Shown here piece by piece: positions 13,501 to 59,565 of a stretch of 64,000 nt of DNA. The DNA is from Naegleria gruberi (taxonomy: Eukaryota). The stretch's first letter is position 1. Every line of letters starts with the position of its first letter. The notes beneath the pieces are model-generated. The model was not told the origin of the DNA and did not search any database. It saw only the letters and a program-made list of their open reading frames with translations. A program made the position numbers and the translations under genes. The DNA is taken from NCBI GenBank assembly GCA_000004985.1, contig GG738904.1; one strand, written 5' to 3'.

Positions 13501-13723
13501 NNNNNNNNNNNNNNNNNNNNNNNNNNNNNNNNNNNNNNNNNNNNNNNNNNNNNNNNNNNNNNNNNNNNNNNNNNNNNNNNNNNNNNNNNNNNNNNNNNNN
13601 NNNNNNNNNNNNNNNNNNNNNNNNNNNNNNNNNNNNNNNNNNNNNNNNNNNNNNNNNNNNNNNNNNNNNNNNNNNNNNNNNNNNNNNNNNNNNNNNNNNN
13701 NNNNNNNNNNNNNNNNNNNNNNN
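7514..13723. other. Assembly gap (N run, about 6.2 kb)
   Basis: Contiguous n characters. Confidence 0.99.
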
Positions 13724-26353: not shown

Positions 26354-29300
26354 TTGGATTTCAACATGCAAGTTTCAGAACAACAAGTATCTGTAGTACT
26401 AACTCATCAACCACAATCATCATCAATATCTGAAGCGGATAATAATAATAATAATAATACCATTAACAATATAGATAATAATAATAATAGCAATAATAAT
26501 AATAATAATATAGAGGAAGATAATGATAATAATAATAATATTTACATGCTTTCATTCAATAATAGTGGATTAACACCTGCATTACCTGATCCGAGTCCTT
26601 CACCTCCACTTAAATCAACTGTTGCAGTAGTTGGTACATCATCACAACAACAAAACATGTCGAAATTATATTCCTCTCCTCCGAATAACATTAACAATCA
26701 ATTAGATTATTCACCAGTGAGGATTAGAACCATCAATTCGGCGACATTACCAACCAATAATAATATTAACAATAATAATGAAGACCGATCACTGATGATG
26801 ACAACAACAACATCTTCATCAACTGCACCTCCTCCACCTAGTTCTTATCAATATCCAATTCCAACAAGACCTACTACTACTAAATCTTCATCCGTGAATG
26901 AGAGTAATAATATGATGGAGGACAATTTCCCCAACACCATAGAAAGTAATGTGCGAACACAAGAACATTCCCAACAACAAACACACTACAAATCCTATCA
27001 TCACAATAATGAAAGAGAAGGAGAACGAGCTTCTTACTATCATCACTCCTATCCATCACAAAATTCCATAATGATGACAAATAATCATAATATCGAAAAT
27101 TGGAAAGGCTTGAAGGAAAACAGCAACAATCTATCATCCGCAGAAATTCAAAAAGAACAAGCGAACTTGGTTTACGGCACTCAATACCGCCAAAAGAATA
27201 GAAGTACACAACCACCTAGCAGCGCTTCTTACTTAGGATCAGTTGTTGAACGAGAAGAAAGAGGAGACGAAGAAGAAGAAGATTATCGTGTCTATCATCA
27301 TCAGCAACAACCACAGCAACAACAATATTTGAGAGAGAACTATTATCCTTCTCATCAGGGTAGTAGTACTACGTTGCCAAGCACTACTTCAATCTTGTTG
27401 CCAAGCCACGAAGCAAGGAATATCCAAAATTATAACAACCCTTCGCTACAAATAATTAATCAAAAGAATACCTCCACAAGTTCAACTTCACCTTCTTTAA
27501 ATTTTGCTACAGGTTCGTCTTCACAACAACCATTGCACGGAAGAAGAAATAGCAATTATCATCTGTACGATAATAATAACTATCACCAACAACACCAATA
27601 CGTGGAGAGAAATAATAACAATTTTCCAACAACTTCTCTCCATCAACGAACAACACCAACAACAATAGCAGAATATCAAGTTGGAGCTCCTAGTTATTCT
27701 AAACAAAGTTCAATGCAACAACAACCCTTTGTCATTCAGCCAAGTATGCAGCCCTCATCTGGAATACCGTCCTTTCACCAAGTTCACTCATCCTCCTCTG
27801 CCACCAATTCCTTCCATGTACCTTCCAATTATCAACAACATCATCATCATCAACCTCCACCACCACAACACTATCAACCACTTCCTCCGTCATCATCATC
27901 CTCATCAAATTATTTGAATCCTCCACACCAACAACAACAACAATCATCCTACTCTTCACCAAACAGTAACCAAACTAACTCATCCGAACCAAAATTACGT
28001 GTCTATAATTCAACATTAAAAGTTCCAGAAGGAATTTTTTCATACGATAACACAACACTAACTTGTGAACCTCATGGATTTAAGCCAAATGATAGAAGAG
28101 GAGCTCCACAAACAACTCACAGTGTCTACGTGAGTGATGTATTAGTAGTTACTTGTGATTTGGTTAACATGTCGAATCAACCAGGTGTTTTTCAAAATTG
28201 TACTGCGAGATTGGTTCATTTGATGGGAAAGAATGCTAAAAAGAAGAGAAAGGAAGGAGTCAGTGATCAAGATGATGGTTTAGACTCGGAGGATGATGAT
28301 TTGGATGATGGAAAGAAGAAGAAAAAGAAGAATAAGAAGAAGGATCAAGAAGATTCACTTGATGGTGATTTTGTTACTGATTTTTCACAGGCAGGAATGT
28401 TAGAGTCTTTTGAATTATTATCGGAACAACCTTGTCAAGAAAATGTTCAGAAAGGAAAGATTGTTTCCTCCCTCAAGGTTCCTCGTGTTAGGGGAAGAGA
28501 TTGTAAAACAAAGACTGGACAAATTCAAGTTATTAGATTTAAAGGAACAGAGAGAGAACATATTATTGCTGTGAGTGACTTGTTCTGGATAAGATCTAGA
28601 ACAAGAACAGAGATGGAAGTGAGAAAGTTCAAGAAACAACAGCAACAAACTCCACAACAATCATTGCCATCTCATCAACCACCTCAACAACAACCAATTT
28701 CTGTTCAATCACATGAAACTTCCAATCTTTCTTTGCATCATCATGCACAACAACTTTCTCATCCACCAACAATTCCATCTTCAAGTTTAAATCCTCCTCG
28801 TGAAAATTATCATAATCCACAATGGCCAAATATGCCAAATATTGTACAACCAAATTCACCAAGTACAAATGAGCATGCTGGTCTTCCTCCTAAAAAGAGA
28901 AGGAATAATAGTCCAGGAGGTGGTAATACACCAAACACTTATAGAGTTCCTTCAAATCCAGCTGCTTCAATTGTTCACTCATCAACAGGATATTTCCCCT
29001 CAAACAATATTCAACATCAAGAGAATGGTAAAGTACCAAATCTACACGATTCTCCTTCTCTTAGTCATCATCATCATCACGTGCCTTATCAACCATCGAG
29101 GAATGAACCAACTTATCATGAATTACTACAACGAGTTCACACATTAGAAGAAAAGTTGAATAGACTTGAAAGTAAATTGACTAGAGCTGGACATTTGTCA
29201 CCTGAGTTCCCAATGCCACCTGATAGTCAAACATTTTCTCCATTCCTCCCTAGTTCTGCAATTCAGCCACGTCCTGTTGAACCACCTAAAACTTTTGCAC

Positions 29301-29539
29301 CTTTCCCAATTGATGTTTTCATTAAAGACGATAAGAGAGGAGAAAACCCAACATTGCCTTCAGTGGTTTCGTCAGATTCCCAACCAGCAATTTTTAATCC
29401 AAAATCACCACTTCCAAGTTTCCCTTTTGATCCATCTGATTCATTCTTGAAGAATAGTTTCTCATCACCACCAGCTTTTACAAATCCAACATCGAGCAGT
29501 TCATCCGAGAGTGGAGGTGGCATGAAGAGAGAACGTTAA
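26354..29539 (+). CDS. Large N/Q/S-rich low-complexity protein with a unique central core (about aa 540-760) and a C-terminal coiled-coil segment. It may be a nuclear regulator.
   Basis: Uninterrupted ORF of 1061 aa with poly-N, poly-Q and Ser/Pro-rich tracts. The complex-sequence core is YNSTLKVPEGIFSYDNTTLTCEPHGFKPNDRRGAPQTTHSVYVSDVLVVTCDLVNMSNQPG...QVIRFKGTEREHIIAVSDLFWIRSR. It also has a KKKRK-like basic patch. Confidence 0.5.
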   Translation: MDFNMQVSEQQVSVVLTHQPQSSSISEADNNNNNNTINNIDNNNNSNNNNNNIEEDNDNNNNIYMLSFNNSGLTPALPDPSPSPPLKSTVAVVGTSSQQQNMSKLYSSPPNNINNQLDYSPVRIRTINSATLPTNNNINNNNEDRSLMMTTTTSSSTAPPPPSSYQYPIPTRPTTTKSSSVNESNNMMEDNFPNTIESNVRTQEHSQQQTHYKSYHHNNEREGERASYYHHSYPSQNSIMMTNNHNIENWKGLKENSNNLSSAEIQKEQANLVYGTQYRQKNRSTQPPSSASYLGSVVEREERGDEEEEDYRVYHHQQQPQQQQYLRENYYPSHQGSSTTLPSTTSILLPSHEARNIQNYNNPSLQIINQKNTSTSSTSPSLNFATGSSSQQPLHGRRNSNYHLYDNNNYHQQHQYVERNNNNFPTTSLHQRTTPTTIAEYQVGAPSYSKQSSMQQQPFVIQPSMQPSSGIPSFHQVHSSSSATNSFHVPSNYQQHHHHQPPPPQHYQPLPPSSSSSSNYLNPPHQQQQQSSYSSPNSNQTNSSEPKLRVYNSTLKVPEGIFSYDNTTLTCEPHGFKPNDRRGAPQTTHSVYVSDVLVVTCDLVNMSNQPGVFQNCTARLVHLMGKNAKKKRKEGVSDQDDGLDSEDDDLDDGKKKKKKNKKKDQEDSLDGDFVTDFSQAGMLESFELLSEQPCQENVQKGKIVSSLKVPRVRGRDCKTKTGQIQVIRFKGTEREHIIAVSDLFWIRSRTRTEMEVRKFKKQQQQTPQQSLPSHQPPQQQPISVQSHETSNLSLHHHAQQLSHPPTIPSSSLNPPRENYHNPQWPNMPNIVQPNSPSTNEHAGLPPKKRRNNSPGGGNTPNTYRVPSNPAASIVHSSTGYFPSNNIQHQENGKVPNLHDSPSLSHHHHHVPYQPSRNEPTYHELLQRVHTLEEKLNRLESKLTRAGHLSPEFPMPPDSQTFSPFLPSSAIQPRPVEPPKTFAPFPIDVFIKDDKRGENPTLPSVVSSDSQPAIFNPKSPLPSFPFDPSDSFLKNSFSSPPAFTNPTSSSSSESGGGMKRER

Positions 29540-30122
29540 ATGAAGTGAAATAAAAAATTAATTGTAAATTCAAATATGAAAATTGAAGTTTAGTTTGTAA
29601 TATGTTTGAGAATCCAACAAGTTCAAAGATATTAATGGTCCTTCCACCTTGTGTGTCATGTACTCTAGTGTAAAAAAATCAAAAAGGCTGTGTGAAAAGT
29701 GAGCTTAACTTTACAACATGTGATCGTTCAATGCGTGCGTACGATCTCCGATCTATTGAGAAGAAACCAGTTGTTGAAAATTGCAAACTTGAAGATTTAA
29801 CGTTTCGAAAAAAAATTCATGAGTAGTAACAAGTAGGCCGCTAATTTGCTTGCTAGAAAAGACTCTGATCACACACTATGTAAGTCATCATTCTTAAATA
29901 TCTTGGCAAGATATTAATTTCTACATTTCACCAATTTGCTTGTAAAAATTTACAAATTGCAATTTTAATGATCCAATGATAATAATAATGATCATCATCC
30001 GATACCTAATTAACTTGATCATATTAATACTACCATGATCATCAATGATGATATTGTACACTTTGTATGCAAATTGTCGTGATGAAAAATCTTGTCAAAC
30101 ACTTTTGGATTAATTTCCAAAT

Positions 30123-32723
30123 ATGGACTCTTTAATATTGGTCCTTTTTCTTGCATTACTCTCTGTGTTGATCGTCACCAAAACACTCAATTGGTTCTTT
30201 CTCTATCAACATTCCATTCAATATTGCATTTCCTCTCCTTTCTTAACCCAATTGACCAAAATCTTGAAAAAATCGATGAAATTTCTTATTGGGCTCTTGT
30301 TGTTCTTTGTTTGTTATTCGTGGTATTCTTCTTTCAAAATACTTGCCATTGCTCCGAATGAAAACTTTGAAAAATCCTTGCAATATCGGAATGCTTCCTC
30401 TTTCCAATTTCATATCAAATCTTCCATCCTTGCTGCTTGTCTAAATTCCCACCACTCTAACAATGCAAATACTTGCAAATCTTCCTCCACTCATAACCAT
30501 CGTGCTGATGTTAATGATGCTGAACCAATTTTTGAACTTTCCTGTCGTTGCACAACTTTAAATCCGATGAATAATGATCCTTCTCTCACCACCAAAAACA
30601 ACCTCGACCAAATATTGCAACAATACCAAAATTCATTGACTTTGGACTCCCCGAATCAATCGACCACCCCCAACTACTACGGCTCTTGTTCTGTTACTGA
30701 CAATCGTGATGATGATGCTTCTGGTGCTTCTTCCTCTGCTTCTTCCTCTGCAACTGCTACCTTGATTAATACCAACCAAAATAGTACTAAAAACTCTCTC
30801 AAAGAAGTAGAAGAAAAAACAACAACTCCCTCCAAACAACTCTTAGAAATAATGAATAAGAACGACTTGTATGCACTTGCTCCAAATCACTTCCTCTACA
30901 ATCCAATGTTGAATAAGGATACCGCATTCACAGTGGAGGATCGTGAAAAATTGGGTCTTCGTGGATTGTTGCCACCACACGTTGAGACCATTACTCATCA
31001 ATTGGTGAGATGCTTGAGACAATTCCGTAACTTTAAAAATCCATTGGACAAGTATGTTTACTTGATGAGTTTGCAAGGTAGAAATCAAACCTTGTTCTTT
31101 AAATTGTTGATTGATAACATGGTTGAAATGTTGCCAATTGGTAAGTTGATGATAATAATTTTGCATTCCAAAGTTTTTAACACATTCTCTCTCATCTGTG
31201 TGAAATTTACTTGTTATTTTGCTTAATACAAATAATAATGCTTCGGAACCACCACAACAAAACACAACATTCATTTACCACTCTTTTTAACATTATAAAC
31301 AGTCTACACACCAACTGTTGGTGATGCTTGTCTTCAATTCGACCAAATTTGGAGAGTTGCTCAAGGCATGTACATCTCATTGGAAGATAAGGGATCAATT
31401 TCTGCAATTTTGAAGAATTGGGAACCAAAGCAACCAGATATTATTGTCGTTTCCGATGGTTCACGTATTTTGGGTCTTGGTGATTTGGGTGCTAATGGTA
31501 TGGGTATTCCAATTGGTAAATTGAATCTCTATGTTGCTGCTGCTGGTTTCCATCCAGATAAGACTTTGCCAATTTGCATTGATGTTGGTACTAACAATCC
31601 AGGATTGTTGGAAGATGATTTATATTTGGGATTGAAGAGAAAGCGTGTTCGTGGACAAGAATTCTTTGATTTCATGAAGGAATTTATGATTGCTGTCAAG
31701 ACTACATGGCCAAATTGTTTAGTCCAATTCGAAGATTTCTCAAATGATGTCTGTTTCGATTTATTGGATCAATATCGTAATGAACAATTGTGTTTCAATG
31801 ATGATATCCAAGGTACTGGTGCTGTCATTGTTGCTGGTTTCATCAATGCTGCCAAGATTACTGGTAAGAGAACTTATCAACACAAATTATTATTTATGGG
31901 AGCTGGTTCTGCTGCCACTGGTGTCGCTGATCAATGTGTTGGTGTCATGAAATTGCAAGCTGAAGAAGATGGATTGAGCAAGGAAGAAATTGATGCCATG
32001 TCTGAACATTGGGTTTATTTGGTCGATTCTAAGGGATTAGTTACACAAACTCGTTCTGATTACGAAGAAATGCCACATCACAAGAAGAAGTATGCCAAGA
32101 AGGGTGATGAAACTTTGGGTAACTTCCAATCCAAATCTCTTTTGGAAATTGTTCAAAAGACTCAACCAACTGCTCTCATTGGTCTCTGTGGTCAATCTGG
32201 TGTTTTCACTCAAGATATCATTGAAGAAATGGCCAAGATTAACCAAAAGCCAATCGTTTTTGCCTTGTCCAACCCAACTAAGAATTCTGAATGTACTGCC
32301 AAGGAAGCTATTGAATATTCAAGTGGAAGAGCTATCTTTGCTTCTGGTTCTCCATTCGAAGATGTTACTTACAATGGAAAGACTTATCAATTGAGTCAAG
32401 GTAACAATTTGTACATTTTCCCAGCTTTGGGTCTTGGTGCTGTCGTTACCAGATCAAAGCACGTTTCTGATGTTATGATTTTGAGAGCTGCTCAAACTTT
32501 GGCCGATCTCACAAGCCAAGATAGATTGGACAATGGATTGTTGTATCCAAGTTTGACAAATATCAGAGAAATTGCTCAAAAGATTGCTGTCCAAGTTGGT
32601 AAACAAAGTGTTAAGGAAGGTCTTTCTCAATTGACTGAAGAACAATTACCAAAATCTGAAGAAGAATGGGTTAAAATTGTTAAGGATTATGTATATACTC
32701 CAGATTATGAGTCCAAATTGTAA
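30123..32723 (+). CDS. Malic enzyme (NAD(P)-dependent malate dehydrogenase, decarboxylating) in 2 exons: ?-31140 and 31303-32723. The annotated start at 30123 is the start of the open frame; the true start is uncertain.
   Basis: Hallmarks: LYNPMLNKDTAFTVEDREKLGLRGLLPP...EMLPI|VYTPTVGDACLQFDQIW...GSRILGLGDLGANGMGIPIGKL...FEDFSNDVCFDLL...FNDDIQGTGAV...GAGSA. The intron is GTAAGT...ACAG (31141-31302) with phase 1 conserved. Confidence 0.8.
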
Positions 32724-33081
32724 ATATTTCAACAATTAATTTAAACCAACTATTATAAACATTTAATATTTCACTGATATTATTTCACACACTTTCAATA
32801 TATTCTCCATTCCAATCGCAACAGCGTCCAACCATACTCAATTCTGTCCAATTCTATCTAAATGCAACCTGAGGATCTCCTTCACAACCAAGCGCATCAA
32901 CCAAACACTAGTCCGACCAGCACTACGATCCTAGTGCACTTCAATTAATATCATGTCATGAAATCTCTCCACCGTATTACTTTTAAACAAAAAGAAAAAA
33001 AATCTCCAATTGTTAACTGTACAAATCTTTCATCTTTTTCCGAAAGTTAGAGAATAATTTGAAAGAGAAGGTGAACACAAA

Positions 33082-34095
33082 ATGACTAGTCAAGAGAGTA
33101 ATGATGGATCAATTTCCTATGGATGGTGGATTGCCACTCTTTTAATAGGAATTGTCCTGATGAGAATATTGCAATTAATTATGAAATTGAAAAGACAAAT
33201 AAGCAAGGCTGGTGGAACTCCTGGTTATTGGCAATTATTGGCTGAAGGCTTGTTTATCATGCCAATTCTTTCGCCCTATATTGCTCATGGTAATTTCCCA
33301 GTGATTCAAGGATTGATTGCTAAGGAGGAAGAGAGAGCTAAGGGAAGTGATGAAAAGCAATTGATTATTCGTGTCAGTACTCCCTATAGAAATAATTATG
33401 TAATTTGGGATAAGGATTCAGTGAAGGAAGTTTTAGTTACAAAATCATCATCCTTTCCAAAACCTTTGGATTTTTATGAACCTTTCAATATTTTCGATAA
33501 GGATGCTACTTCAATTTTGACAGCTGCCGATGGTCCAGTTTGGAAGAATCATAGACATGTGGTGGCTCCTTCATTCTCAACTGGTAATTTGGTTTTTATG
33601 AGTCAAGTGACTGTAAAGACAGTTGATGCATTGTTTAGAACAAAGTGGAATAAGTTATTGGACCAGGATAGTAAGGGATTCATTATGGATATGGAAGATA
33701 CTACAGCTGTCACTCTTCAAATTATTGGTGAAAGTGGATTTGGTATGGATTTTGGTGTTTTCGATGAAACTAGCTCTGATTCTAAAAAGTTTAGAGAAGC
33801 ATTGAATATTGTCGTGAGAGTTGACTATTATGCCAGATTCTTCCTTGCTAAAATCCCATTCCTTTACAATGCAGTTTCTGATTATACTGGAAATACAGAA
33901 GCTCTCAAGGTGATGAGTGAAAAGCTTGAACAATGCATTTCTCAAAGAGTAGCCGAATTCAAACAAGATCCAGAAAAACCAATGAATGATTTATTGTCGC
34001 TCCTTGTTAAGGCAAACATGATGGATGAAAAACTCACACTCAATGAATTGAAGAGTAACAGTTACATCTTCGTAGTTGCAGGTCATGAGTATTGA
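33082..34095 (+). pseudogene. Cytochrome P450, N-terminal half only. It ends at the I-helix ...FVVAGHE and then Y-stop because an insertion follows.
   Basis: N-terminal membrane anchor plus P450 fold up to AGHE (I-helix AGHETT). It is a paralog of the N-half of the P450 at 55239-56286 (shared ...SDAYIFS/VVAGHE). The reading frame hits TGA at 34093-95, right after CATGAG. Confidence 0.6.
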
Positions 34096-34618
34096 AAATC
34101 AGAAGGTGTTCTTAAAGATGGTCACTGGTGCCATCAATGGTTTGATTCGTGGATTTTGGTTAAAGATATTATTCCACTTGAAGAACATTCTTCAATTATT
34201 AGGAGATGTTACAGCATGCTATGTGGAAAGTACCGTTAATATTTCCAAAGATATTTTGGAAATGTACAGTTTCATAATGAAGGAATCATTTTTGGAAAGA
34301 TTAAATTCAAGAATTGAGGAGAGAAATCTTTTATGTATTGATTTTGAAATTGTTAACAATGGATTGGTAGATAGGAATGCAGAGTGTTTTAACTCATGGT
34401 ATGAAAATGTATCTAAACATCTTATTGATTGGTCAAGTAAGGCTGTAAGTAATCGATTTGCAGAGTTTACAGAGTTAGTGGATGAAATTTTTGGTCAAGT
34501 TAAGAATGATTATGCAATGATTGCTGATAAAACTATTGAAAAGAGAACAATGGAGTATAATTTTATTACTGAAAAGAAGAGAAGATTGACAGAATTGATC
34601 AAAGAGTTAAAAAAGTAG
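34085..34618 (+). CDS. Hypothetical protein of 177 aa, predicted helical. Its ATG is embedded in the P450 His-Glu codons (cATGag).
   Basis: ORF MSIENQKVFLKMVTGAINGLIRGFWLKILFHL...RLTELIKELKK in frame +2 relative to the P450. I recognise no domain. Confidence 0.3.
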   Translation: MSIENQKVFLKMVTGAINGLIRGFWLKILFHLKNILQLLGDVTACYVESTVNISKDILEMYSFIMKESFLERLNSRIEERNLLCIDFEIVNNGLVDRNAECFNSWYENVSKHLIDWSSKAVSNRFAEFTELVDEIFGQVKNDYAMIADKTIEKRTMEYNFITEKKRRLTELIKELKK

Positions 34619-34639
34619 ATTGGTAATGAGTAAATTGAA

Positions 34640-35060
34640 TTGTGTCTGTGCAATTCTGATTGTATTCTTGTAAAGTGGTGATGGTACCTGTCAGGTACCG
34701 TCACAGGTACTTGGCAGGTACGATTTTTACCATCACAGGTACCGTCACAGGTACTTGGCAGGTATCACAGGTACCATCAGGTACCATCAGGTACCATCAC
34801 AGGTACCGTCACAGGTGCAAATGGTACCTGACAAGTACAATCACAGGTACCGTCACAGGTATCTGAATTTCCTCACAGGTACCATCACAGGTACTTGGCA
34901 GGTATCACAGGTACCATCACAGGTACCATCACAGGTACCGTCACAAGTACTTGGACCATCACAAGTACCCTTACAAGGACTTGTAAGGTGCTCAACACGT
35001 ACCTACAGTGTCTGACAAGTATGGTACCTCACAATAACCATCACAGCTACAACAAACACC
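34640..35060. repeat. Imperfect tandem minisatellite, about 20 units of CACAGGTACC(A/G)TCA or CAGGTACTTGG, each centred on a KpnI palindrome GGTACC. It begins with an inverted unit that can form a hairpin.
   Basis: Repeated caggtaccatca and caggtaccgtcacaggtacttggcaggtat. At 34676-34710, tgatggtacctgtca is the reverse complement of tgacaggtaccatca. It lies between the convergent 3' ends of ORF 34085-34618 and gene 35100-36299. Confidence 0.85.
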
Positions 35061-35099
35061 ATAACAAATACTTTTTATATCTCCTCCAATCAACTATAT

Positions 35100-36299
35100 T
35101 TATTTGAAATATTTGGATTTCTTAATAGGTCTATGGACATTATGATCATTTTCTGAATCAGAACTAATACCACCTCTATCTGAAGAATCTTCTTCAACAT
35201 CTTCTTCTTCATCATCCTCTTCAACTTCACAATGATCAGCATTTCCAAAGCAAATATTGTACCAAATTGGAGGACCTTCATCAGACTTGTTACAATCATC
35301 TTTATCCATTTGCTTTTCAAAGAATAACTCCATTTCAAAGGCATCAAGTTCTTCATTCAATTGAATAACATCCTTAACAGGTGGTTCTATGATGGCTTCC
35401 TCTTCAATATAACCATTCTCATTGTAACGATTGATGAGAAGAACTGTTTCCTTTGAGGTGTCAAATATCTCTTCTTCCTCCTTCTCATTAAAATCAATAC
35501 TTTCATCATCTGCTATAGTTGCAGATTCCTTCTTTTCATACTCCACAATTAAATTCAAACCACTAACATCTGGTTTGATTACAAGACTGGAAAGCGTGTC
35601 TTCATTTAGAGATGGCAAATCATCATATGGGAAAACAATACTTTGAGTTTCACTAACGGATGAGTATCCATCTTGATCTGCTCTAGCCATTTCGACAGAA
35701 TCATCATCAGTGAGTGCATCATCTTCTGTTAGAATCAATGGTTCATTAAATACATCAACTTGTTCTTCCATCTGAGTTTCTGCACTTGATATAATCAATA
35801 AAGGTTGAACCAATTCATATCTCTCATTGGTGTAAGAGTAAAGGTCAATGTCATCATTGTTTAATAACAAGTTTAACAATGTTGAATTACTAGTCTGTGA
35901 AAGCACTTTTCCCTTCTTACTAAACTCTCCAACAAATGCTTGGAAATTGAATTCACTATTACATTGTTCCAACTCTTTGAAATAAATCAAAGAAGGGTTC
36001 ATTTCAAGTAAATCTGCCAAATCTTCTAATTTACTATCCATGGATAAAAAGTCATCATGCTTCTTCTCCTTAAAAATCAAAAGTAAGAGACAAAGTGCAA
36101 AATAATCACAAGAGTAATCTGCTGATAATCCATTAATATCATCTTGATTGATAGGATCGTTACCAAGCCAAAAAGATGTCAATTCCTTCCTTAGCTTGAT
36201 ATCCAAATAACAGAAATCACTGACAACTTCACTATAAAATTTCTTCTTTACTAATTCTTCTACTAAACACCACTTGTTGAAATATGTATTGTACAACAT
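35100..36299 (-). CDS. Hypothetical acidic (D/E-rich) protein of 399 aa, divergently transcribed from the Myb-LAGLIDADG gene
   Basis: Uninterrupted ORF MLYNTYFNKWCLVEELVKKKFYSEVVSDF...EEDDEEEDVEEDSSDRGGISSDSENDHNVHRPIKKSKYFK. I recognise no domain. It shares a 345-bp promoter region (36300-36644, containing (AT)8 and CACAC..CTCGAG..GTGTG) with the downstream + gene. Confidence 0.45.
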   Translation of the reverse strand: MLYNTYFNKWCLVEELVKKKFYSEVVSDFCYLDIKLRKELTSFWLGNDPINQDDINGLSADYSCDYFALCLLLLIFKEKKHDDFLSMDSKLEDLADLLEMNPSLIYFKELEQCNSEFNFQAFVGEFSKKGKVLSQTSNSTLLNLLLNNDDIDLYSYTNERYELVQPLLIISSAETQMEEQVDVFNEPLILTEDDALTDDDSVEMARADQDGYSSVSETQSIVFPYDDLPSLNEDTLSSLVIKPDVSGLNLIVEYEKKESATIADDESIDFNEKEEEEIFDTSKETVLLINRYNENGYIEEEAIIEPPVKDVIQLNEELDAFEMELFFEKQMDKDDCNKSDEGPPIWYNICFGNADHCEVEEDDEEEDVEEDSSDRGGISSDSENDHNVHRPIKKSKYFK

Positions 36300-36644
36300 G
36301 ATGGATTATTCCTTTTTTTTCAAAAACAAAAGCTTTCACACAACCTCGAGTCGTGTGAAATGTCTCACACTCTAATATTTTAATATTTTTATAAGGCTTG
36401 AATATATATATATATATATTGAAAAGGGATTGACCGAAACTGGAAGACACATTAATTGGATATCTAAAGAGACCAAACAAATTTTCCTCAGAATTGAAGA
36501 GTCACGTCGCTACGTCCCTCAAGACATCCACACAACTTTGCAAATTAATACAATTGAGAAAAAAAAACTACTTTTATTTTCGACTCAACTTTGTTACAAG
36601 TAACAACACACATCAAATTCCAACACAGAACTCAATATAGCAGA

Positions 36645-38966
36645 ATGATAAGAAAAAACTGGTTAAAAGAAGAAGAAGATCTTTTGGTCAAATTGGTAAA
36701 GGAAAAAGGCCACAATTGGACTGAAATTGCTCCCAACTTCGATGTTACTCCAAATGCCTGCCACAAAAAGTATAAGGATTTGTTAAAGAATCTTGGCAGG
36801 AAAAGATCGTTCTGGACTGATGAAATGAAAGCTAATCTCCTTAAATTAGCAAAAGAATATGCCGATAAAGGAATAGAGAAATGGAAGATTATTGAGGAAA
36901 AATTAGGAAAAGAAGCTAAAGCTTGCCAACAGCATTTTTATTATTTAGTCAAACAGCACGGGTTGGATTCTAATGATTTCAACAGCGTCAGACCATTTTG
37001 GACCATGGAAGAGAAGCGCGAATTGACTGAGTTAGTCAATTTGCATGGAAGGAAGTGGAAGAAAATTGAGAAACTAATTAGCTGCAACAGAGATGCTCAT
37101 TCTTGTCAGAGCCAGTTTATGCTATTAGAAAGTAGACAGAATGATCCAATTGAAAAGAAGTTGAACGATATCTTTCAAGCAACGACTTCAGAGACAGATT
37201 TGAATGAAATCTCTCTTTACGAATTCTTCAATATCCCAACAAGTAGATACAATGGGGTTCCAGCATCGACTTTGTTGGTGGATCAAGCAGATGAAGTTGA
37301 TGAAGAAACATTTCATCGTTCTTACATGGCTGGAGATACTGAATTTAGTGTACGTGAGGTTGCAACTGGTAGATTGGTCAGAAAAACCATTGAGGAGATT
37401 TATCTTTCCAGTGGAACATATGAAACATATAGTATTGAATCTGGATTTAATGTGGAAGAAATTGGTAAGTTTCGTTTCAATTACTATTTTCAAAGAATAA
37501 TAATAATGAAAGAATGTAAATTGTTTCCAGCAAATGAAGTATTAGAGTTGAGTGCTACTTGTTTCAAAGCAAAATTATATTTCAATGAATGTGCTCGAAT
37601 TGTTGAAGAGAAACGTTTCATATTTTCCGAACAAGTTCAAGTCCGTCCAGATGAGTGCAGTAGTGTGAGATTACCTGTATCAGATCTTCAAGACAATATG
37701 TTCATCATTAATAACTATCAATTGAAATCCAAGGAAAAGCTTGTAAGAACATCATTACCATGTGGTCAACTTACTGACACCACCCAAACAAAAGAATGTA
37801 AGTATTTTATGAATTATTCTCATAATATTTTAAAGATTTTGACATTTTGTTCAGAACTTTCCCAACTCTAGTTGACTCCAAAGACAAACAGGGAGTCATG
37901 GTTCAACTATTGGGAGCCTATTTAGCAGATGGTGATGGAGGATACTTTAAATTGTATTTTAATGCCAAAAATGAGCAAGAACTTACCTATTATTTTACAG
38001 ATTTCTTAAAAGAAATTTGTGAATTGAATTCAGAGACAATAAGAGAGGATCTTAAATTCAAGAAAGAGGAAGAGTATGTCACCATTAAGCTCAATGATAA
38101 GAATGCTGACAAGGATATTGAACGAGTCTTACAAAATGGTTATCAAATATCCGGGTCCATACTTGTTGCACCTGCATGGTATGTTTTTCACTTTCAATAC
38201 ATTTTTACTAGTAACAAATAGTACTGGCTTACACAGATTTTTAAAAGAAATAGAATTGTTATGTAATAAGTATAATGGCAGTTACCAAACTAGAAAGAAT
38301 TTCTCTTCCATCTTCAACATTACAAATTTTGGTATGTTTAGCTTGTACAAATTTTTCGAAGGTTCTGTACAAGGAGATGGCACATTAGAGAGTAATCGTG
38401 TAACGTTTGGTCAGAATTGTTCAATTTCAGATACTCACCAACAGTACTTTAATCAGGTCCACCATTGTGCAACCATGCTTGGGTTAAAGACTGGCGTGGG
38501 TAAAGTGTGTGAAGAAACTACAGGTTTGAAAATGACTGGTAAGAACATGACCATTTTTGAAAGTGAAGGACTTGAGAAAAAGAAAGTAAATGCAGATGTT
38601 GTGTTTAGACCATTTAATCTTACAGTTCAAAGATTAATAGGTGAATCAATGAAGAAGATGTACTGTTTCAAGAAGAGTAATCACTCCTTCCCAATGTTTA
38701 ATGGAATGATAGTGCAAAATGTTGATACTGATCTAGTTTCTGCTAAAATATGTTATGGGAATAGATGGGAAATTCGTGAAATGGACAACTATGAATCTGC
38801 TGCCACTTTCTGCTTGAAGAAATATATTGCTTCCTTAGGGTTTCCAAGTGACCGTATGACAAGAAATGCTGTAAGAAGATTAATACTAAAAATAGAAGGA
38901 ATAGTATCTGTTAAAAGAAAGCAAAAATCAAACAAGGAATCAAACAAGAAAGTTAAAACACAATAA
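36645..38966 (+). CDS. Fusion protein with three N-terminal Myb/SANT-type repeats and a C-terminal two-motif LAGLIDADG endonuclease-like domain. Exons: 36645-37464 (or read-through), 37531-37801, 37855-38178, 38222-38966.
   Basis: Myb repeats: WLKEEEDLLVKLVKEKGHNWTEIAPNF..Y, FWTDEMKANLLKLAKEYADKGIEKWKIIEEKL..F, FWTMEEKRELTELVNLHGRKWKKIEKL..F, with W-x18-22-W-x18-(Y/F) spacing. LAGLIDADG motif 1: VMVQLLGAYLADGDGGYFKLYF (37907-37945). Motif 2, about 130 aa later: SLYKFFEGSVQGDGTLESNRVTF (about 38352-38390). Introns: GTAAGT..CAG (37465-37530, in-frame and optional), GTATTT..TTCAG (37802-37854), GTATGT..ATAG (38179-38221, short). Confidence 0.5.
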
Positions 38967-39085
38967 CATTTCAATTAAAGAATATATTTACTGAACTTTA
39001 TTAAATGACTTTTTATTTCTGAATAAACAAAAGTATATTGAGCACTTTTGCATCCATTTGAAAATTGACAATCATTTCTGCTGAA

Positions 39086-39162
39086 ATGGTCATGTAAGAA
39101 GTATGAATTATGTCATTCTGGAAACTCTTCGTATTCATCCACCTGTAACATGTGTTTAGAGT
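39086..39162 (+). pseudogene. Degenerate P450 K-helix fragment (..NGHVRSMNYVILETLRIHPPVTCV*) just inside the right end of the insertion
   Basis: ETLRIHPP matches the P450 ExxR / HPP K-helix consensus. MNYV matches the paralog at 56520-56560 (IMNYVNAVIMET), not the adjacent C-half (MDYIHGCVMECLRLHPPV). It is out of order for a P450, which runs I-helix then K-helix. Confidence 0.45.
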
Positions 39163-39178
39163 TGCTAAGAAGACAACC

Positions 39179-39842
39179 ACATGAGGTTCGTGTTTTATAA
39201 TTAATTTTACAAGTGTTTAACAAAATATTTAAGACGACTGCCACAACCATGCAATGGTTAATGTACGAATTGTCCAAGCGTCCAGAAGCTCAACAAAAGG
39301 CCAGAGAAGAAGCAATCAGAATTGGAGGAGGTGACAATGTTTTGAGAGCTCCAGATTTTGATGATTACAACAATATGGACTATATTCATGGTTGTGTAAT
39401 GGAATGCTTACGTCTCCATCCACCAGTCGTTTCCATGGTAAAAACCTGTGCCAAATCTACCAAAATTGGAAAAACAAGCATTCCAAAGGGATCTTGCATC
39501 TATGTAAATGCCAAGGCCTGTCACTTGTACGGTGAAGATTTTAACACCACTGAATTTACTGGTGCTCAATTCGCTCCAGAAAGATTTTTGGATAAGGATT
39601 TCAAACAAAAGGTTCAAACAAGTGGAGCATGGTTCCCATTCAATATGAGTAATAGAAAATGCATTGGTTACATGTTTGCCCAAATTGAATTGTGTATCAT
39701 GTTGTGTAGAATGTTGCAATTTTATGAATTCAAATTGTTGAATGATGAAAGTAAACCAGCTGAGAAGGTTGAAGATCTTCCTGGTATTACCTTTAGACCA
39801 TCTTCTAATTTGAAGGTTTTGGTAACAAGAAGAACAAAATAA
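39179..39842 (+). CDS. Cytochrome P450 C-terminal half. A 7-nt micro-exon ACATGAG (39179-39185, the His-Glu of AGHETT) is followed by a GTTCGT..TTTAAG intron (39186-39233) and exon 39234-39842 (TTATTMQWLMYEL...heme loop FPFNMSNRKCIGYMFA).
   Basis: Contains ECLRLHPP (ExxR), PERF and FxxxxxRxCxG (FNMSNRKCIG). Together with 33082-34089 it would form a complete P450 if the insertion were absent. Confidence 0.6.
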
Positions 39843-54920: not shown

Positions 54921-55238
54921 TCCTCAATCTTTCAATAAAAAGTTTGACAAATTTCAAAATATTTAAATATTTGAATAAGTTCATAGATTCGAATTTCGGC
55001 AACATCATCTCGTACACAAAATCTCTCACTATTGCAAAGCACGATCGCTCAAAAAACCAAATAACCACAGCGCCAAAGCATCCTTATTTGGAAAAACTAA
55101 TATCCGTCATCGCACGCTCACCATTTCGGGGAATATATTACAGAGAAAGAATCGACCAACAAATAATTGAAATAAATTCCTCACCTTCTCCAAGGAGAAA
55201 TTCCCAACAATTTGAAAAAAAACAAAGAAAACATCGTC

Positions 55239-56928
55239 ATGGCTTTAAGCGAAATTATTTTGGGAATTGTTTGCGTTTTTGCTGCAATTCTTCTCTTCTT
55301 CCTCATTTCAATTTATAATAATTATAAGAAAGTGAGTCACATTCCAGGTGCTTTCCAATTCTTCTTGACTTTTAAGAATATTCCAATCATTTCACCTTAT
55401 TTGAGTTTCGATGGACACAAGAGAATGGAACAATTGGTCAAAACTCACGGAGATCCAAAAACTGGACTTGTCAGATTATCCATGTTCGATAGAAATATGG
55501 TTGTAGTTTCAGATAGAGACATGTTGAAGGAATTGTTGGTCGTTAAGGGTGGAATTTTCATCAAATCTTGGAAATTATATGAAGTTTTCAATGCTTTCGG
55601 CAAGAATATCTTATCAATTCTCGATGGTACCAGTGATTCATGGAAAAATCATCACAAAGTAGCTTCAGGTGCTTTTGCTTCTAAAAATTTGGAATACATG
55701 TCAAGAGTTGCCTCAAAATCTTTGGATTTGTGTAAGGAAAGTAAATGGGATGGTGAAATGGAAAAGGCATTGAAGGAAGGAAAGGAAGGTATTATTATTG
55801 ATACCAATGCTGATTTTAGTGATATTACTTTGGGTAAGTTTCGAATTTTGACATTGTCATGTTGACCTTTCGAATAATAGACGTTCTTGGTAAGGCTGCT
55901 TTCGGTTTGGACTTTTCCATCTTTGATGAAACTAACCCAGAAGGTAGAATTTTCAGAAAATCCCTCGAAAAGATGTTTACCACTGGTGTAATCTTAAAAC
56001 GTTTCGTCGGATTAAATCCAGTCCTTTCCTGGGCTTTCCCATGGGCTTGCAAATATACTGGTTTAGATAAGGCAGTAAAAGTTGTGAGTGATAAGTTGGA
56101 TGCAATCATTGCGGAAAGAACTCGTGAAGTAGAATTGCGTGGAATGGAAGATGGAAACACATCCGAAACTGGTGTTGAAGAAAGAAAGGATTTGTTGAGT
56201 GTTTTGGTTGAAGCCAATTTCATTCAAAAGGGAATCTTGTCAGGTGATGAACTCAAATCTGACGCTTATATCTTTTCGCTTGCTGGGTATGTATTCGAAT
56301 TTTAAACTATTTGTCCTAATTTATTTTCATAGACATGAGGTTCGTATTTGCAAATTTACAATTTTTTGTAATGATTTTTTTATTTGAAATTTTAGACAAC
56401 TTCAACAACTTTACAATGGGTTTGTTACGAATTATCAACAAAACCAGATATTCAAAATAAGATTCGTGAAGAGATTGATTTACATCTCGGAAAGGGTGTA
56501 AATGCCAGAGCTCCAAACTTTGACGATTATCCAATTATGAACTATGTCAATGCTGTCATTATGGAAACTGCAAATAGAAGTGATCGAAACTGGGATAAAC
56601 CTTTAGAATTCATTCCAGAAAGATATCCAATGAATGCTGAAGAACAATTGAGAATTCAACATGATTTCACTTGGATTCCATTCTCTATGGGTAATCGTAA
56701 ATGCATTGTAAGTACTTTTTGAAAATTTCACAAGTTTACAAAATTTTTCAGGGTTTCAAGTTTGCTCAAATTGAAGCTTTTACAATTCTTGTAAGATTAC
56801 TTCAATTCTATGAATTAGGATTGGATAATGATGAATCTAATCCAAAGGATCAAATTGTTGATGTTCCTGGCGTTACAGTTCGTCCAGGAAATTGTAGAAT
56901 TATTCTCAAACCAAGAAAGGATCTTTAA
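55239..56928 (+). CDS. Cytochrome P450 paralog, 5 exons including a 7-nt micro-exon: 55239-55833, 55881-56286, 56333-56339, 56396-56707, 56752-56928. It lacks the K-helix/ExxR segment and may be a pseudogene or a divergent P450.
   Basis: ...YIFSLAG|HE|TTSTTLQWVCYEL...FSMGNRKCIG|FKFAQIE. The micro-exon ACATGAG is flanked by GTATGT..ATAG and GTTCGT..TTAG introns. Relative to 39234-39842 about 38 aa are missing (LHPPVV...HLYGED), which leaves METANRSD where ExxR should be. Confidence 0.55.
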
Positions 56929-57579: not shown

Positions 57580-58389
57580 CACTAAGAAGAAAACTAACAC
57601 CAAGACAACTGTGAAGAAAACCAACACCAAGAACACTGTGAAGAATACCAATACCAAGAACACTGTGAAGAACACTGTGAAGAACACCAATAAGAAGAAT
57701 ACCATCAAAAAGAAGAATCCAAAGCGTAAGTGTTATTGTTATTTATTAATTTACTAACATTGTTAATAGTTGCTCGGGAAGTTGTCAATTACACAACTGT
57801 GAATGCCAAATGGTTCCTTTATGCTCCAACCACCACCGAAAGTGGTTTCAAAGCTACATTTATTCCAGTCAGTGGTCCATTTAACAGAGTTGAAGAAATG
57901 AAACGAGTTGCTTGTTTGCAAATGTTTTGTGAAAGTTGTGCTATAACTTTGGGTTTTTATTTGGATCCAAGTATGTTCAAAAGATTTCAAACTGGTATTC
58001 GTATTGCATCATTGAAACCTGAATGGTTCTCTCATTATTTCGAGTCATGTGGTGGAAAAATGAAAAACAGAGTTCAATATATTCGTTACAATGGTCACAG
58101 TTTGAGTATTACTTGTCCTTCTTATGAATTCTATGGTTTGGAAAATATGCCACCTTTGAATTGTAATGGTAGTTATGCAAGCACGGTTTTTCAAGTTTCC
58201 CAACCAATATTGATGAACCATCCATTTCAACCACACTTTAAATGGATTGAACAGTGGAAATTTGTTTACAGATTGTATTTCTCTAAACTCGTATTTATAT
58301 GCAATCCAGTAACGAATATGGTTTCAGTAGATTTGGAATTTACAAAGGATGTACAAAGTATGGATTGTACTGGTTTCCAAATTGTTTAA
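57580..58389 (+). CDS. Hypothetical protein. An upstream exon encodes K/T/N-rich 7-aa repeats (DNA 21-bp tandem repeats, 57580-57724), then intron 57725-57771, then main exon 57772-58389. The start codon was not resolved.
   Basis: Open frame KNTKKKTNTKTTVKKTNTKNTVKNTNTKNTVKNTVKNTNKKNTIKKKNPK, then GTAAGT...TACTAAC..AATAG and LAREVVNYTTVNAKWFLYAPTTTESGF.... The 21-mer is ACCAAGAACACTGTGAAGAAT, 4-5 times. Confidence 0.4.
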
Positions 58390-58399
58390 TAAATAATTT

Positions 58400-58879
58400 T
58401 TATTCATTAAAATCAATTAATGACAAGTCACATTCTTCTCGTTTCAATTTCAAGAATAGCACATTATTGAACTTGAATGGATTTTCTGCTAAATTGTCTG
58501 TTGTATCAACATGAACAAATAAAGACTTGAAGGCTCTATTTTCTGCATACAAAATTGAATTTAAAGAGTAAAGTTTTAATCTTCGGGTTGCAGAGGGTAA
58601 ATCAAATACTTCACGTAGAATTTTCAAATATTTAGTATCTGTAAATTCTACAACACCTTCATCCTCATCAATTCCATAATCAATCAAAGTTCTTTTTAAT
58701 TCATCCATTAGAGCTCTTGGATTAACAATAGATGGTTTCATAACACAATTCGGAATATACAGATGATCATAAAATTGATCATCTGTAATTTCTTCTCCTT
58801 CACAACAAATCATAACTACGGGCAATTCGTAAATGGTGTTATAAATAGGAATTATATTGGCTTCAGCAACACGAGGCAT
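58400..58879 (-). CDS. Hypothetical protein (about 159 aa from MPRVAEAN...), divergent from the H3-variant gene
   Basis: The ORF track extends it to 59005, but that extension overlaps the conserved 80-bp element and the H3-variant start. The internal Met at 58877-58879 is more plausible. Confidence 0.4.
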   Translation of the reverse strand: MPRVAEANIIPIYNTIYELPVVMICCEGEEITDDQFYDHLYIPNCVMKPSIVNPRALMDELKRTLIDYGIDEDEGVVEFTDTKYLKILREVFDLPSATRRLKLYSLNSILYAENRAFKSLFVHVDTTDNLAENPFKFNNVLFLKLKREECDLSLIDFNE

Positions 58880-58887
58880 TTTGTCAG

Positions 58888-58966
58888 TTAAAATATTTGA
58901 TCGTCGATTCCCCGTGCCAGTGTTGTGGTAGTAAAAGTGATTCCGTAATCGACTCTCAAAAAAACT
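58888..58966. repeat. Conserved element of about 80 bp with an internal hairpin (copy 1). It fills the 92-bp divergent promoter between gene 58400-58879 (-) and the H3-variant gene (+).
   Basis: TTAAAATATTTGATCGTCGATTCCCCGTGCCAGTGTTGTGGTAGTAAAAGTGATTCCGTAATCGACTCTCAAAAA. Copy 2 lies at 62542-62617. Confidence 0.8.
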
Positions 58967-58971
58967 GAAAA

Positions 58972-59532: not shown

Positions 59533-59565
59533 TATTAATCATCATCATTTAATATCTTTAAAAAA

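What the first reader, a model, noticed from the sequence alone, without database searches (positions are those of the whole stretch)
36645..38966. Nuclear gene encoding three Myb/SANT repeats fused to a double-motif LAGLIDADG endonuclease-like domain, located inside the P450 insertion
The N-terminus has three tandem Myb-type repeats with regularly spaced W/W/(Y/F), like the R1R2R3 repeats of c-Myb. The C-terminal exons contain two LAGLIDADG-type motifs, VMVQLLGAYLADGDGGYF and YKFFEGSVQGDGTLE, about 130 aa apart, each followed by a beta-hairpin-like stretch. That layout matches a monomeric two-domain LAGLIDADG homing endonuclease.

Nuclear, intron-containing LAGLIDADG genes outside fungal HO/intein contexts are rare. 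A Myb-DBD fusion sitting in an insertion that targets a conserved P450 motif suggests a previously undescribed nuclear homing or selfish-element system, or a domesticated endonuclease.
Basis: partly seen in the sequence, partly recalled or inferred. Interest (0 to 1): 0.9.

Follow-up and report, generated by a model that had tools for sequence, protein, structure and literature searches.

The report
Myb-fused intein-type endonuclease on mobile insert
A Naegleria gruberi nuclear gene joins three Myb DNA-binding repeats to a nuclease module resembling the yeast HO/VMA-intein endonucleases, and it sits on a 5.1-kb insert that is missing from the same P450 gene in a near-identical genome, which looks like a homing-type selfish element of a kind so far known only from yeasts.

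Summary
Window 36645-38966 (+) is N. gruberi NAEGRDRAFT_73307, a 724-aa protein from 4 exons. Residues 5-165 are three Myb repeats (Pfam E 4e-20).

The gene lies on a 5,144-bp insert (34090-39233) placed exactly between the E and T codons of the P450 AGHETT motif. A 98%-identical metagenome contig has the empty, continuous site. Ten substitutions cluster within 27 bp of the junction. The insert's right end carries P450-paralog sequence. The gene and its neighbour are duplicated together on another scaffold.

Most likely this is an HO/WHO-like homing element with Myb repeats in place of a zinc finger. Cleavage is untested.

The parts
36645..38966 (+). Gene NAEGRDRAFT_73307 (Myb x3 + intein-derived LAGLIDADG module). 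Exons 36645-37464, 37531-37797, 37836-38178, 38222-38966.
   Evidence: The translation of these exons equals P0001 / XP_002671538.
36657..37139 (+). Three Myb/SANT repeats: aa 5-52, 55-104 and 117-165.
   Evidence: Pfam PF13921 E 3.9e-20 and PF00249 E 6e-20, three stretches each. PDB matches to Reb1, c-Myb and SNAPc4.
37305..37745 (+). Region occupying the position of the intein N-terminal Hint/DNA-recognition part (aa 221-345). Similarity is not demonstrated.
   Evidence: It is colinear in the whole-length hhalign, but taken alone it scores no better than shuffles (z = -0.2). Model pLDDT is below 40. It is conserved in paralog P0003.
37874..38561 (+). Double-motif LAGLIDADG endonuclease core (aa 376-590). 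Motif 1 is LLGAYLADG at 37907-37933 (D394). The block-D lysine K502 lies in RKNFSSIF at 38292-38315. Motif 2 is FEGSVQGDG at 38355-38381 (D529). Block H is at 38460-38498.
38661..38720 (+). Intein block F/G-like end of the module: YCFKKSNHSFPMFNGMIVQN, compared with ...SDHQFLLANQVVVHN in PI-SceI.
   Evidence: The hhalign segment test gives z = 6.0, with 0 of 100 shuffles reaching the real score. Alignments.
38721..38963 (+). C-terminal tail of 81 aa, predicted as strands plus two helices, ending in a basic KRKQKSNKESNKKVK stretch.
   Evidence: Secondary structure and pLDDT of about 55-61. No family match.
34090..39233 (.). 5,144-bp insert in the P450 gene, absent from the empty allele. The boundary is ambiguous by 1 nt because G flanks both ends.
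   Evidence: L001 (ENA ERZ929261, run ERR1078381) aligns to window 28093-34088 at 98.1% and then continues directly at 39234-39661 at 98.8%.
34066..34089 (+). Left-flank tract of 24 bp holding 9 substitutions relative to the empty allele. One further substitution lies at 39236 on the right.
   Evidence: Mismatches fall at distances 0-23 on the left and 2 on the right. The next ~575 bp on the left hold only 3 and the 425 bp on the right hold 4.
35100..36299 (-). ORF399 = NAEGRDRAFT_73306, an acidic protein of unknown family, divergently oriented to the endonuclease gene.
   Evidence: Exact match P0021. Its 98.7%-identical paralog P0022 lies on the same 573-kb scaffold as endonuclease paralog P0002, with consecutive UniProt accessions D2V8Z9 and D2V8Z8.
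34085..34618 (+). ORF of 177 aa at the left end of the insert. Its first ATG lies within the CATGAG of the P450 exon. No known family.
   Evidence: The exact sequence is not in the protein collection.
34683..34950 (.). GGTACC-rich minisatellite with periods of 12, 32 and 44 nt.
   Evidence: It is also present next to the ORF399 fragment in L003.
39103..39178 (+). Degenerate P450 K-helix-like fragment (MNYVILETLRIHPPV..RVAKKTTT), distinct from this gene's own K helix.
   Evidence: Reading and the alignment.
39179..39233 (+). ACATGAG plus a 48-nt GT..AG intron-like piece (39186-39233). It matches the micro-exon and intron of P450 paralog B and is absent from the empty allele.
   Evidence: ACATGAGGTTCGTRTTT is identical at 17 of 18 positions to window 56333-56350, at the same position in the gene. 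Absence shown.
33082..34089 (+). P450 5' half, ending ...VVAGHE. It is annotated as a truncated 337-aa protein, NAEGRDRAFT_73304. The 3' half is 39234-39842.
34055..34065 (.). GTAACAGTTAC palindrome holding two YAACNG Myb-consensus sites, directly abutting the substitution tract.
   Evidence: Only 0.4% of 40-bp windows hold two or more such sites. This is a post-hoc observation.

Best explanation
What it is. The gene encodes a free-standing, intein-derived (PI-SceI/HO-type) double-LAGLIDADG endonuclease. It has lost the protein-splicing residues and carries three N-terminal Myb repeats as an extra DNA-binding module. It is the cargo of a ~5.1-kb multi-gene element.

Proposed mechanism (inferred):
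1. The protein recognises the P450 I-helix coding region, roughly the 27 bp that differ between the filled and empty alleles. The adjacent GTAACAGTTAC may be a docking site for the Myb repeats.
2. It cuts empty sites.
3. The break is repaired from a filled copy, which copies in the element together with a few tens of bp of donor flank.

History of this copy (inferred). The donor flank came from a paralogous P450. That would explain the 24-bp tract of mostly synonymous changes on the left, and on the right the P450-type ACATGAG, the 48-nt intron and the K-helix stub.

Shown: the domain architecture, the exact presence/absence of the insert, the substitution cluster, the paralog-derived end, and co-duplication of the gene with its neighbour.

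Inferred: nuclease activity, the target site, and homing.
For: - Architecture. The catalytic-position residues D394, D529 and K502 align with PI-SceI D218, D326 and K301. The alignment is; the residue roles are from my knowledge of PI-SceI.
- Mobility: an empty site in a syntenic contig that is 98% identical.
- Junction signature: 10 substitutions in 27 bp, where about 0.4 would be expected from the flanking rate.
- Paralog-derived right end.
- More copies: the ORF399 + endonuclease pair on a second scaffold, and an 89%-identical fragment at another locus of the genome that has the empty site.
- Lineage restriction: the family was found only in N. gruberi among 1.8 billion representative proteins.
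- Faster divergence: the endonuclease pair differs at 5.0% of aligned residues, its neighbour pair at 1.25%.
- Precedent: WHO/HO elements (PMC7282813; bioRxiv 10.64898/2026.08.13.744650).
Against: - No direct HMM or PDB sequence hit reaches significance.
- The N-terminal Hint-like part has no detectable similarity to inteins.
- The only usable structural model depended on an alignment that contained inteins. The single-sequence model was uninformative.
- Unlike introns, inteins and WHO elements, this insert interrupts the host reading frame (AGHE-Y-stop). The insert as a whole has no canonical GT..AG borders.
- The flanks of the second copy could not be read.
- The roles of ORF180, ORF399 and the minisatellite are unknown.
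- Two of the gene's introns are only 38 and 43 nt long and are not verified by transcripts. The gene model for paralog P0002 skips the exon parts that follow them.
Confidence: 0.55

Rival explanations
1. Domesticated or catalytically dead LAGLIDADG-Myb protein. It would act as a host DNA-binding regulator or a HO-like cellular nuclease. In this reading the 5.1-kb block is a segmental duplication captured at a chance break in a dispensable P450, unrelated to the protein's activity.
For: LAGLIDADG folds are known to be reused for DNA binding: WhiA is among the structural matches, and see PMC3384342. The host gene is simply broken. The element holds other ORFs.
Against: Both catalytic-position aspartates and the lysine are kept. 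The insertion sits exactly at a codon boundary of the most conserved P450 motif, with a 27-bp substitution cluster and P450-paralog sequence at its end. That pattern is hard to get from random capture. The family is multi-copy, lineage-restricted and fast-diverging.
Confidence: 0.2
2. The element moves by some other route, such as transposition with a 7-bp target duplication (T/A)CATGAG. The Myb-nuclease protein would then be its transposase-like factor, or merely a passenger.
For: TCATGAG (34083-34089) and ACATGAG (39179-39185) flank the core of the insert. Myb-like domains do occur in some transposases (my own knowledge).
Against: There are no terminal inverted repeats. The right-hand heptamer is followed by 48 nt that are also absent from the empty site. 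So it is not a duplication of this target. It is part of a P450-paralog-derived piece. No transposase, integrase or reverse-transcriptase family matches any ORF.
Confidence: 0.1
3. The C-terminal region is an unrelated orphan domain, and the two 'LAGLIDADG' strings are chance matches.
For: No significant direct HMM hit. In an HMM-versus-sequence test the real sequence ranks only 9th among 2,003 sequences.
Against: The alignment to inteins is colinear across seven blocks, with z about 8 against shuffles and a clear margin over real control proteins. The endonuclease segment and the C-terminal segment are each significant on their own. The top weak Pfam hit is the correct family. The low-confidence single-sequence model already predicted alpha-beta-beta-alpha-beta-beta-alpha twice.
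Confidence: 0.1
4. It is a working intein that splices the Myb part (N-extein) to the 81-aa tail (C-extein).
For: Block F/G is retained, with a terminal Asn (MIVQN).
Against: There is no Cys, Ser or Thr at the aligned position 1 (Asp in P0001). Block B TxxH is absent. The penultimate residue is Gln, not His. The +1 residue is Val.
Confidence: 0.02

Closest known systems
HO endonuclease and WHO elements of Saccharomycetaceae (Coughlan et al. 2020, PMC7282813; Osborne et al. 2026, bioRxiv 10.64898/2026.08.13.744650)
   Same: A free-standing nuclear gene encodes an intein-like LAGLIDADG endonuclease with no exteins and no splicing, fused to an extra DNA-binding domain. It is associated with a specific site in a conserved host gene. 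Host-gene fragments lie beside the endonuclease gene. Alleles differ sharply in a ~27-bp region at the site; WHO6 recognises 28 bp. There are several diverged copies and apparently decaying ones.
   Different: The extra domain is three Myb repeats at the N-terminus, not a C-terminal GATA-like zinc finger. Motif G is partly kept here (MIVQN) but is absent in HO/WHO. The host is a P450, not FBA1 or MAT. The host reading frame is interrupted rather than given a replacement 3' half. The element carries two more ORFs and a minisatellite. The organism is a heterolobosean amoeboflagellate. Similarity to HO-type sequences is detectable only at profile level (13-19% identity).
PI-SceI (VMA1 intein, VDE) and other intein-encoded LAGLIDADG endonucleases
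   Different: There are no splicing residues, it is not embedded in a conserved host protein, and similarity of the N-terminal Hint part is not detectable.
Intron-encoded monomeric LAGLIDADG homing endonucleases (I-DmoI, I-AniI, I-SceI)
   Different: Those are organellar or archaeal and ride in self-splicing introns. This one is nuclear, has spliceosomal introns of its own, retains an intein-type C-terminal block, and has Myb repeats.
c-Myb / Reb1 / SNAPc4-type triple Myb DNA-binding domains
   Same: Three consecutive Myb repeats that pass the Pfam thresholds.
   Different: They are fused to a nuclease module. I could not find that combination in the literature available to these tools.

Membership tests
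LAGLIDADG homing endonucleases (double-motif, single chain) | Two LAGLIDADG helices, each ending in a conserved acidic residue followed by Gly | tested here: met
   LLGAYLADG (D394-G395) and FEGSVQGDG (D529-G530) align with LLGLWIGDG and LAGLIDSDG of PI-SceI-type sequences. Motif 1 is also conserved in paralog P0003 as VGLYMADG.
LAGLIDADG homing endonucleases (double-motif, single chain) | Significant match to a curated family HMM (Pfam LAGLIDADG_1/2/3, Hom_end) | tested here: not met
   The best match is PF05204 Hom_end at E 0.061 and 13.9 bits, below the 21.1 cut-off. Nothing was found with the whole protein, with NCBIfam, or against PDB sequences.
LAGLIDADG homing endonucleases (double-motif, single chain) | Profile-profile similarity beyond controls | tested here: met
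   hhalign score 34.4 (P 0.0012) against shuffles at 15.6 +/- 2.3 and real control proteins at 20.3 or less. The core segment alone gives z 5.4.
LAGLIDADG homing endonucleases (double-motif, single chain) | Duplicated alpha-beta-beta-alpha-beta-beta-alpha fold | tested here: inconclusive
LAGLIDADG homing endonucleases (double-motif, single chain) | Site-specific double-strand cleavage leaving 4-nt 3' overhangs | not testable with these tools
   This needs purified protein and the empty-site substrate.
Inteins (protein splicing, Hint fold) | Cys/Ser/Thr at position 1 and block B TxxH | tested here: not met
   Aligned position 1 is Asp (aa 219). No TxxH is present. The N-terminal segment is no better than shuffles.
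Inteins (protein splicing, Hint fold) | C-terminal blocks F/G ending in His-Asn, followed by Cys/Ser/Thr | tested here: not met
   Block F/G similarity is present (z 6.0). However, the end reads Gln-Asn followed by Val (MIVQN|V).
HO/WHO intein-zinc-finger endonucleases | Intein-like LAGLIDADG region with no exteins and no splicing | tested here: met
   Compare PMC7282813, section 'WHO genes code for...'.
HO/WHO intein-zinc-finger endonucleases | C-terminal zinc finger with repeated CxxC | tested here: not met
   The 81-aa tail has no CxxC motifs. The DNA-binding add-on is the N-terminal Myb x3.
HO/WHO intein-zinc-finger endonucleases | Element keeps the host gene intact by supplying a replacement 3' half | tested here: not met
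   The P450 frame ends AGHE-Y-stop, and no second 3' half follows the 5' half. Only a K-helix stub and an exon-end-plus-intron piece are present.
HO/WHO intein-zinc-finger endonucleases | Presence/absence polymorphism at a fixed host-gene site, with strong allelic divergence at the site | tested here: met
   The empty allele is L001. Ten substitutions lie in 27 bp at the junction.
Myb R1R2R3-type DNA-binding domain | Three tandem Myb repeats passing curated thresholds | tested here: met
   PF13921 scores 72.2 bits (cut-off 22.9) and PF00249 scores 71.5 bits (cut-off 24.4), three stretches each.
Cut-and-paste DNA transposons | Terminal inverted repeats, target-site duplication and a transposase | tested here: not met
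   No terminal inverted repeats. The apparent 7-bp repeat does not border the sequence missing from the empty site. No transposase family hit.

The most novel reading that the evidence does not exclude
An active, WHO-like 'third-category' homing element exists in a non-fungal eukaryote. A Myb-guided, intein-derived nuclease cuts the I-helix coding site of P450 genes and spreads among alleles and paralogs. In doing so it has carried a spliceosomal intron (the 48-nt GTTCGT..AG piece shared with paralog B) into a P450 that lacks an intron at that position in the empty allele. That would be endonuclease-driven intron transfer in a nuclear gene. On paper, splice sites at the two ends of the insert would allow an in-frame message encoding AGHE(R)QPHETT.
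Probability: 0.25. Interest if true: 0.92.

Novelty: new variant of a known kind. Interest (0 to 1): 0.8.

Why it matters
Free-standing, intein-derived nuclear endonucleases (HO and the WHO elements) are described only from a few yeast genera. The WHO paper calls them the only intein-zinc-finger fusions known in any organism (PMC7282813).

A counterpart in Naegleria, with a different DNA-binding add-on and a different host gene, would mean one of two things. Either this route from intein to free-standing homing element happened more than once, or it is much older than thought.

It would also give:
- a natural, long-site nuclease with a modular Myb guide;
- a filled/empty allele pair ready for a cleavage test;
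- a concrete case in which break repair moved paralog sequence, including an intron, into a nuclear gene.

Tried and rejected
- Single-sequence AlphaFold of the full protein gave pLDDT 34. Its Foldseek matches were meaningless.
- phmmer and hmmsearch of the C-terminal region or the family profile against PDB sequences returned only chance hits.
- NCBIfam gave no intein or LAGLIDADG model.
- An HMM of the intein alignment against the protein was weak: rank 9 of 2,003.
- An exhaustive phmmer over 1.8 billion representatives found only two N. gruberi paralogs.
- Scans of viral and JGI metagenome contigs found nothing.
- A chimeric query meant to find paralogs of ORF180 and ORF399 hit the candidate cap and was uninformative.
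- Exact look-ups of exon-level ORFs found nothing.
- The N. gruberi scaffold carrying the second copy could not be fetched.
- I first took the 48-nt GT..AG piece to be a native intron of this P450. The empty allele has no intron there.
- I considered the whole insert as one spliceosomal intron. Its borders read TA..AG or GT..AA, not GT..AG.
- I considered a 6-7-bp target-site duplication. I rejected it for this site because the right-hand repeat lies inside the inserted DNA.
- My first splice model for intron 2 (a 53-nt intron) was replaced by the NCBI model. Paralog P0003 conserves ILFRTFP.
Full report
**What is at the coordinates**

The window is from Naegleria gruberi. A search with the C-terminal part of my spliced model returned the annotated protein NAEGRDRAFT_73307 (XP_002671538, 724 aa, id P0001) at 99% identity, on a 297-kb scaffold. 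Exons 36645-37464, 37531-37797, 37836-38178 and 38222-38966 translate exactly to that protein.

The three predicted introns are 66, 38 and 43 nt. They start GTAAGT, GTAAGT and GTATGT, and each ends AG. They are short compared with roughly 160-180 nt for introns I inferred in the neighbouring malic-enzyme and sirtuin-like genes. A P450 paralog in the same window has introns of 46 and 56 nt by homology. I could not check transcripts.

**Myb part**

Pfam Myb_DNA-bind_6 (E 3.9e-20) and Myb_DNA-binding (E 6e-20) each match three stretches between aa 5 and 165. The nearest solved chains are Reb1, c-Myb R1R2R3 and SNAPc4.

**Nuclease part: direct tests fail**

- No Pfam LAGLIDADG or Hint model passes threshold.
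- The only pointer is PF05204 Hom_end, the PI-SceI/HO endonuclease family. It is the top hit for the second half of the region, at E 0.061.
- PDB sequence searches with the region, or with a family profile, found nothing relevant.
- NCBIfam found no relevant family either.
- An exhaustive phmmer over 1.84 billion representative proteins found only two relatives, both from N. gruberi. P0002 is 95% identical where aligned. P0003 is a partial protein at 29% identity.

**Nuclease part: more sensitive tests agree**

I collected 17 real PI-SceI/HO-type sequences. I aligned their intein parts and compared that profile with the Naegleria family using hhalign.

The alignment runs from family position 36 to 453, against intein positions 8-454. 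It puts every block in order:
- LAGLIDADG 1: LLGAYLADG against LLGLWIGDG.
- Block D: RKNFSSIF against VKNIPSFL.
- LAGLIDADG 2: FFEGSVQGDG against FLAGLIDSDG.
- Block H: ATMLGLKTGV against ARSLGLVVSV.
- Blocks F/G: SNHSFPMFNGMIVQN against SDHQFLLANQVVVHN.

The nominal P value is 0.0012, which is modest. The controls are clear:
- 200 column shuffles score 15.6 +/- 2.3 (max 22.6), against 34.4 for the real alignment. The reversed sequence scores 15.0.
- Eight other real proteins from the window score 13.1-20.3, and the protein's own Myb region scores 10.7.

Split into three parts:
- The endonuclease core is significant on its own (z 5.4).
- The C-terminal intein block is significant on its own (z 6.0).
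- The N-terminal Hint-like part is not (z -0.2).

MAFFT run without any guidance reproduces the same block alignment. An HMM-versus-sequence test is weak: the real sequence ranks 9th of 2,003. So the similarity is remote.

**Structure**

The single-sequence AlphaFold model was poor (pLDDT 34). It already showed alpha-beta-beta-alpha-beta-beta-alpha twice, but it gave no fold match.

With the merged alignment of the family plus 15 of the intein/HO sequences, the results were as follows:
- The core (construct residues ~156-366) reaches pLDDT 60-90. The Hint-like parts stay below 40.
- Foldseek puts PI-SceI first (E 1.7e-6), followed by I-DmoI, I-AniI and WhiA.

Because the alignment contained inteins, I count this as a consistency check only.

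**Not a working intein**

- Aligned position 1 is Asp.
- Block B TxxH is missing.
- The module ends Gln-Asn followed by Val.

The protein therefore has the HO/WHO logic: an intein-derived nuclease without exteins, plus an added DNA-binding domain. The add-on here is Myb x3 at the N-terminus instead of a C-terminal zinc finger (for the yeast systems).

**The insertion is real and polymorphic**

The P450 5' half (33082-34089) ends ...VVAGHE. It is annotated as a truncated 337-aa protein. The 3' half resumes at 39234 with TTATTMQW.

An exact-sequence cluster look-up turned up a 478-aa uninterrupted version, P0025. Its contig L001 comes from a metagenome (ENA ERZ929261, run ERR1078381). L001 is syntenic: it carries the same upstream gene and the malic-enzyme gene. 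It is 98.1% identical to window 28093-34088 and continues directly at 39234.

So 34090-39233 (5,144 bp) is an insert placed exactly between the Glu and Thr codons of AGHETT.

**Junction signature**

Filled and empty alleles differ at 9 of the 24 bp to the left of the junction and at the third base to the right. For example, GCC GGC CAC GAA becomes GCA GGT CAT GAG. By contrast, they differ at only 3 positions in the next ~575 bp on the left and at 4 in 425 bp on the right.

A 27-bp patch of mostly synonymous change centred on the insertion point is what I would expect from either of two causes:
- co-conversion from a diverged donor, or
- selection at an endonuclease recognition site. The WHO6 site is 28 bp, and the FBA1 site is reported to be in an arms race.

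**The right end of the insert is P450-derived**

- 39179-39233 is ACATGAG followed by a 48-nt GT..AG piece. It matches a 7-nt micro-exon and the start of the following intron in P450 paralog B (56333-56350) at 17 of 18 positions, at the same place in the gene. The empty allele has no intron there.
- Just upstream, 39103-39178 is a degenerate K-helix fragment of yet another P450.
- The left-flank tract (YIFVVAGHE) also resembles paralog B (YIFSLAGHE) more than the empty allele does (YVMVIAGHE).

I read this as evidence that the element previously sat in, or recombined with, other P450 genes and brought pieces of them along.

**More copies**

- The neighbour ORF399 (35100-36299, minus strand; NAEGRDRAFT_73306) has a 98.7%-identical paralog. 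That paralog lies on the same 573-kb scaffold as endonuclease paralog P0002, with consecutive UniProt accessions. So at least this gene pair was duplicated as a unit.
- The genome with the empty site holds an 89%-identical fragment of ORF399 plus the minisatellite at another locus.
- The endonuclease pair differs at 28 of 557 aligned residues, and the ORF399 pair at 5 of 399. The endonuclease changes are concentrated in Myb repeat 3 and in aa 246-326.

**What does not fit a textbook homing element**

- The insert breaks the host reading frame.
- As a whole it has no canonical intron borders.
- It has no terminal inverted repeats.
- The heptamer (T/A)CATGAG at both ends is not a duplication of this target, because the right copy lies inside the inserted DNA.
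- An in-frame splice route across the insert exists on paper (GA|GTATTG to AAG|ACAACCACATGAG, then the 48-nt intron). It is untested, and it would add 4-5 residues to the I helix.

**Verdict**

- Architecture of the protein (Myb x3 plus an HO/PI-SceI-type LAGLIDADG module): about 0.85.
- The 5.1-kb block is a recent, mobile insertion: shown.
- The protein drives that mobility by cutting the P450 I-helix site: the best explanation at about 0.55. It rests on inference from context and on the yeast precedent.

I found no paper that mentions this gene or a Naegleria nuclear LAGLIDADG or intein-like element.

Noticed in passing
window 34055-34065: GTAACAGTTAC palindrome with two overlapping Myb-consensus sites (YAACNG, one per strand). 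It lies 25-34 bp upstream of the insertion point, directly abuts the 24-bp substitution tract, and is present in both alleles. Only 0.4% of 40-bp windows hold two or more such sites. Found post hoc.
   Followed up: partly
window 55212-56928: Second P450 (paralog B) with a 7-nt micro-exon ACATGAG (56333-56339) between introns of 46 and 56 nt inside the AGHETT motif. It appears to lack the stretch between the K helix (METANRS) and FIPERY, so it may be a pseudogene or may have further introns.
   Followed up: partly
window 34683-34950 and L003 790-1097: GGTACC-rich minisatellite (12-nt unit TACCATCACAGG, with higher-order periods of 32 and 44 nt) next to the 3' end of ORF399. It is conserved in position in the diverged copy from another genome. 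Function unknown.
   Followed up: partly
window 34085-34618: 177-aa ORF at the left end of the insert. Its first ATG is formed within the CATGAG of the P450 exon. It matches no family and is not in the protein collection as such.
   Followed up: partly
P0001 versus P0002; P0021 versus P0022: The endonuclease paralogs differ four times more at the amino-acid level than the adjacent ORF399 paralogs (5.0% versus 1.25%). The gene model for P0002 skips exactly the exon parts that follow introns 2 and 3, including LAGLIDADG motif 1, so that copy may be decaying.
   Followed up: partly
window 34088-34094, 39165-39233: On paper, donor GA|GTATTG and acceptor CTAAG|AAG.. or AAG|ACAACC.., followed by the 48-nt intron, give an in-frame P450 message encoding AGHE(R)QPHETT. 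Not tested against transcripts.
   Followed up: no
window 36398-36423: A (TA)n run in the 345-bp divergent intergenic region between ORF399 and the endonuclease gene.
   Followed up: no
window 2001-6000, 8001-12000 and parts of 1-2000, 12001-14000, 58001-62000: Zero or very low GC in the composition profile indicates runs of N (assembly gaps) or extreme low-complexity sequence.
   Followed up: no
P0004 (Logan assembly): The closest database match to PI-SceI carries a chitin-binding domain inserted in the intein. That marks it as a laboratory expression-vector sequence rather than a natural gene. I left it out of the alignment used for the structure.
   Followed up: yes
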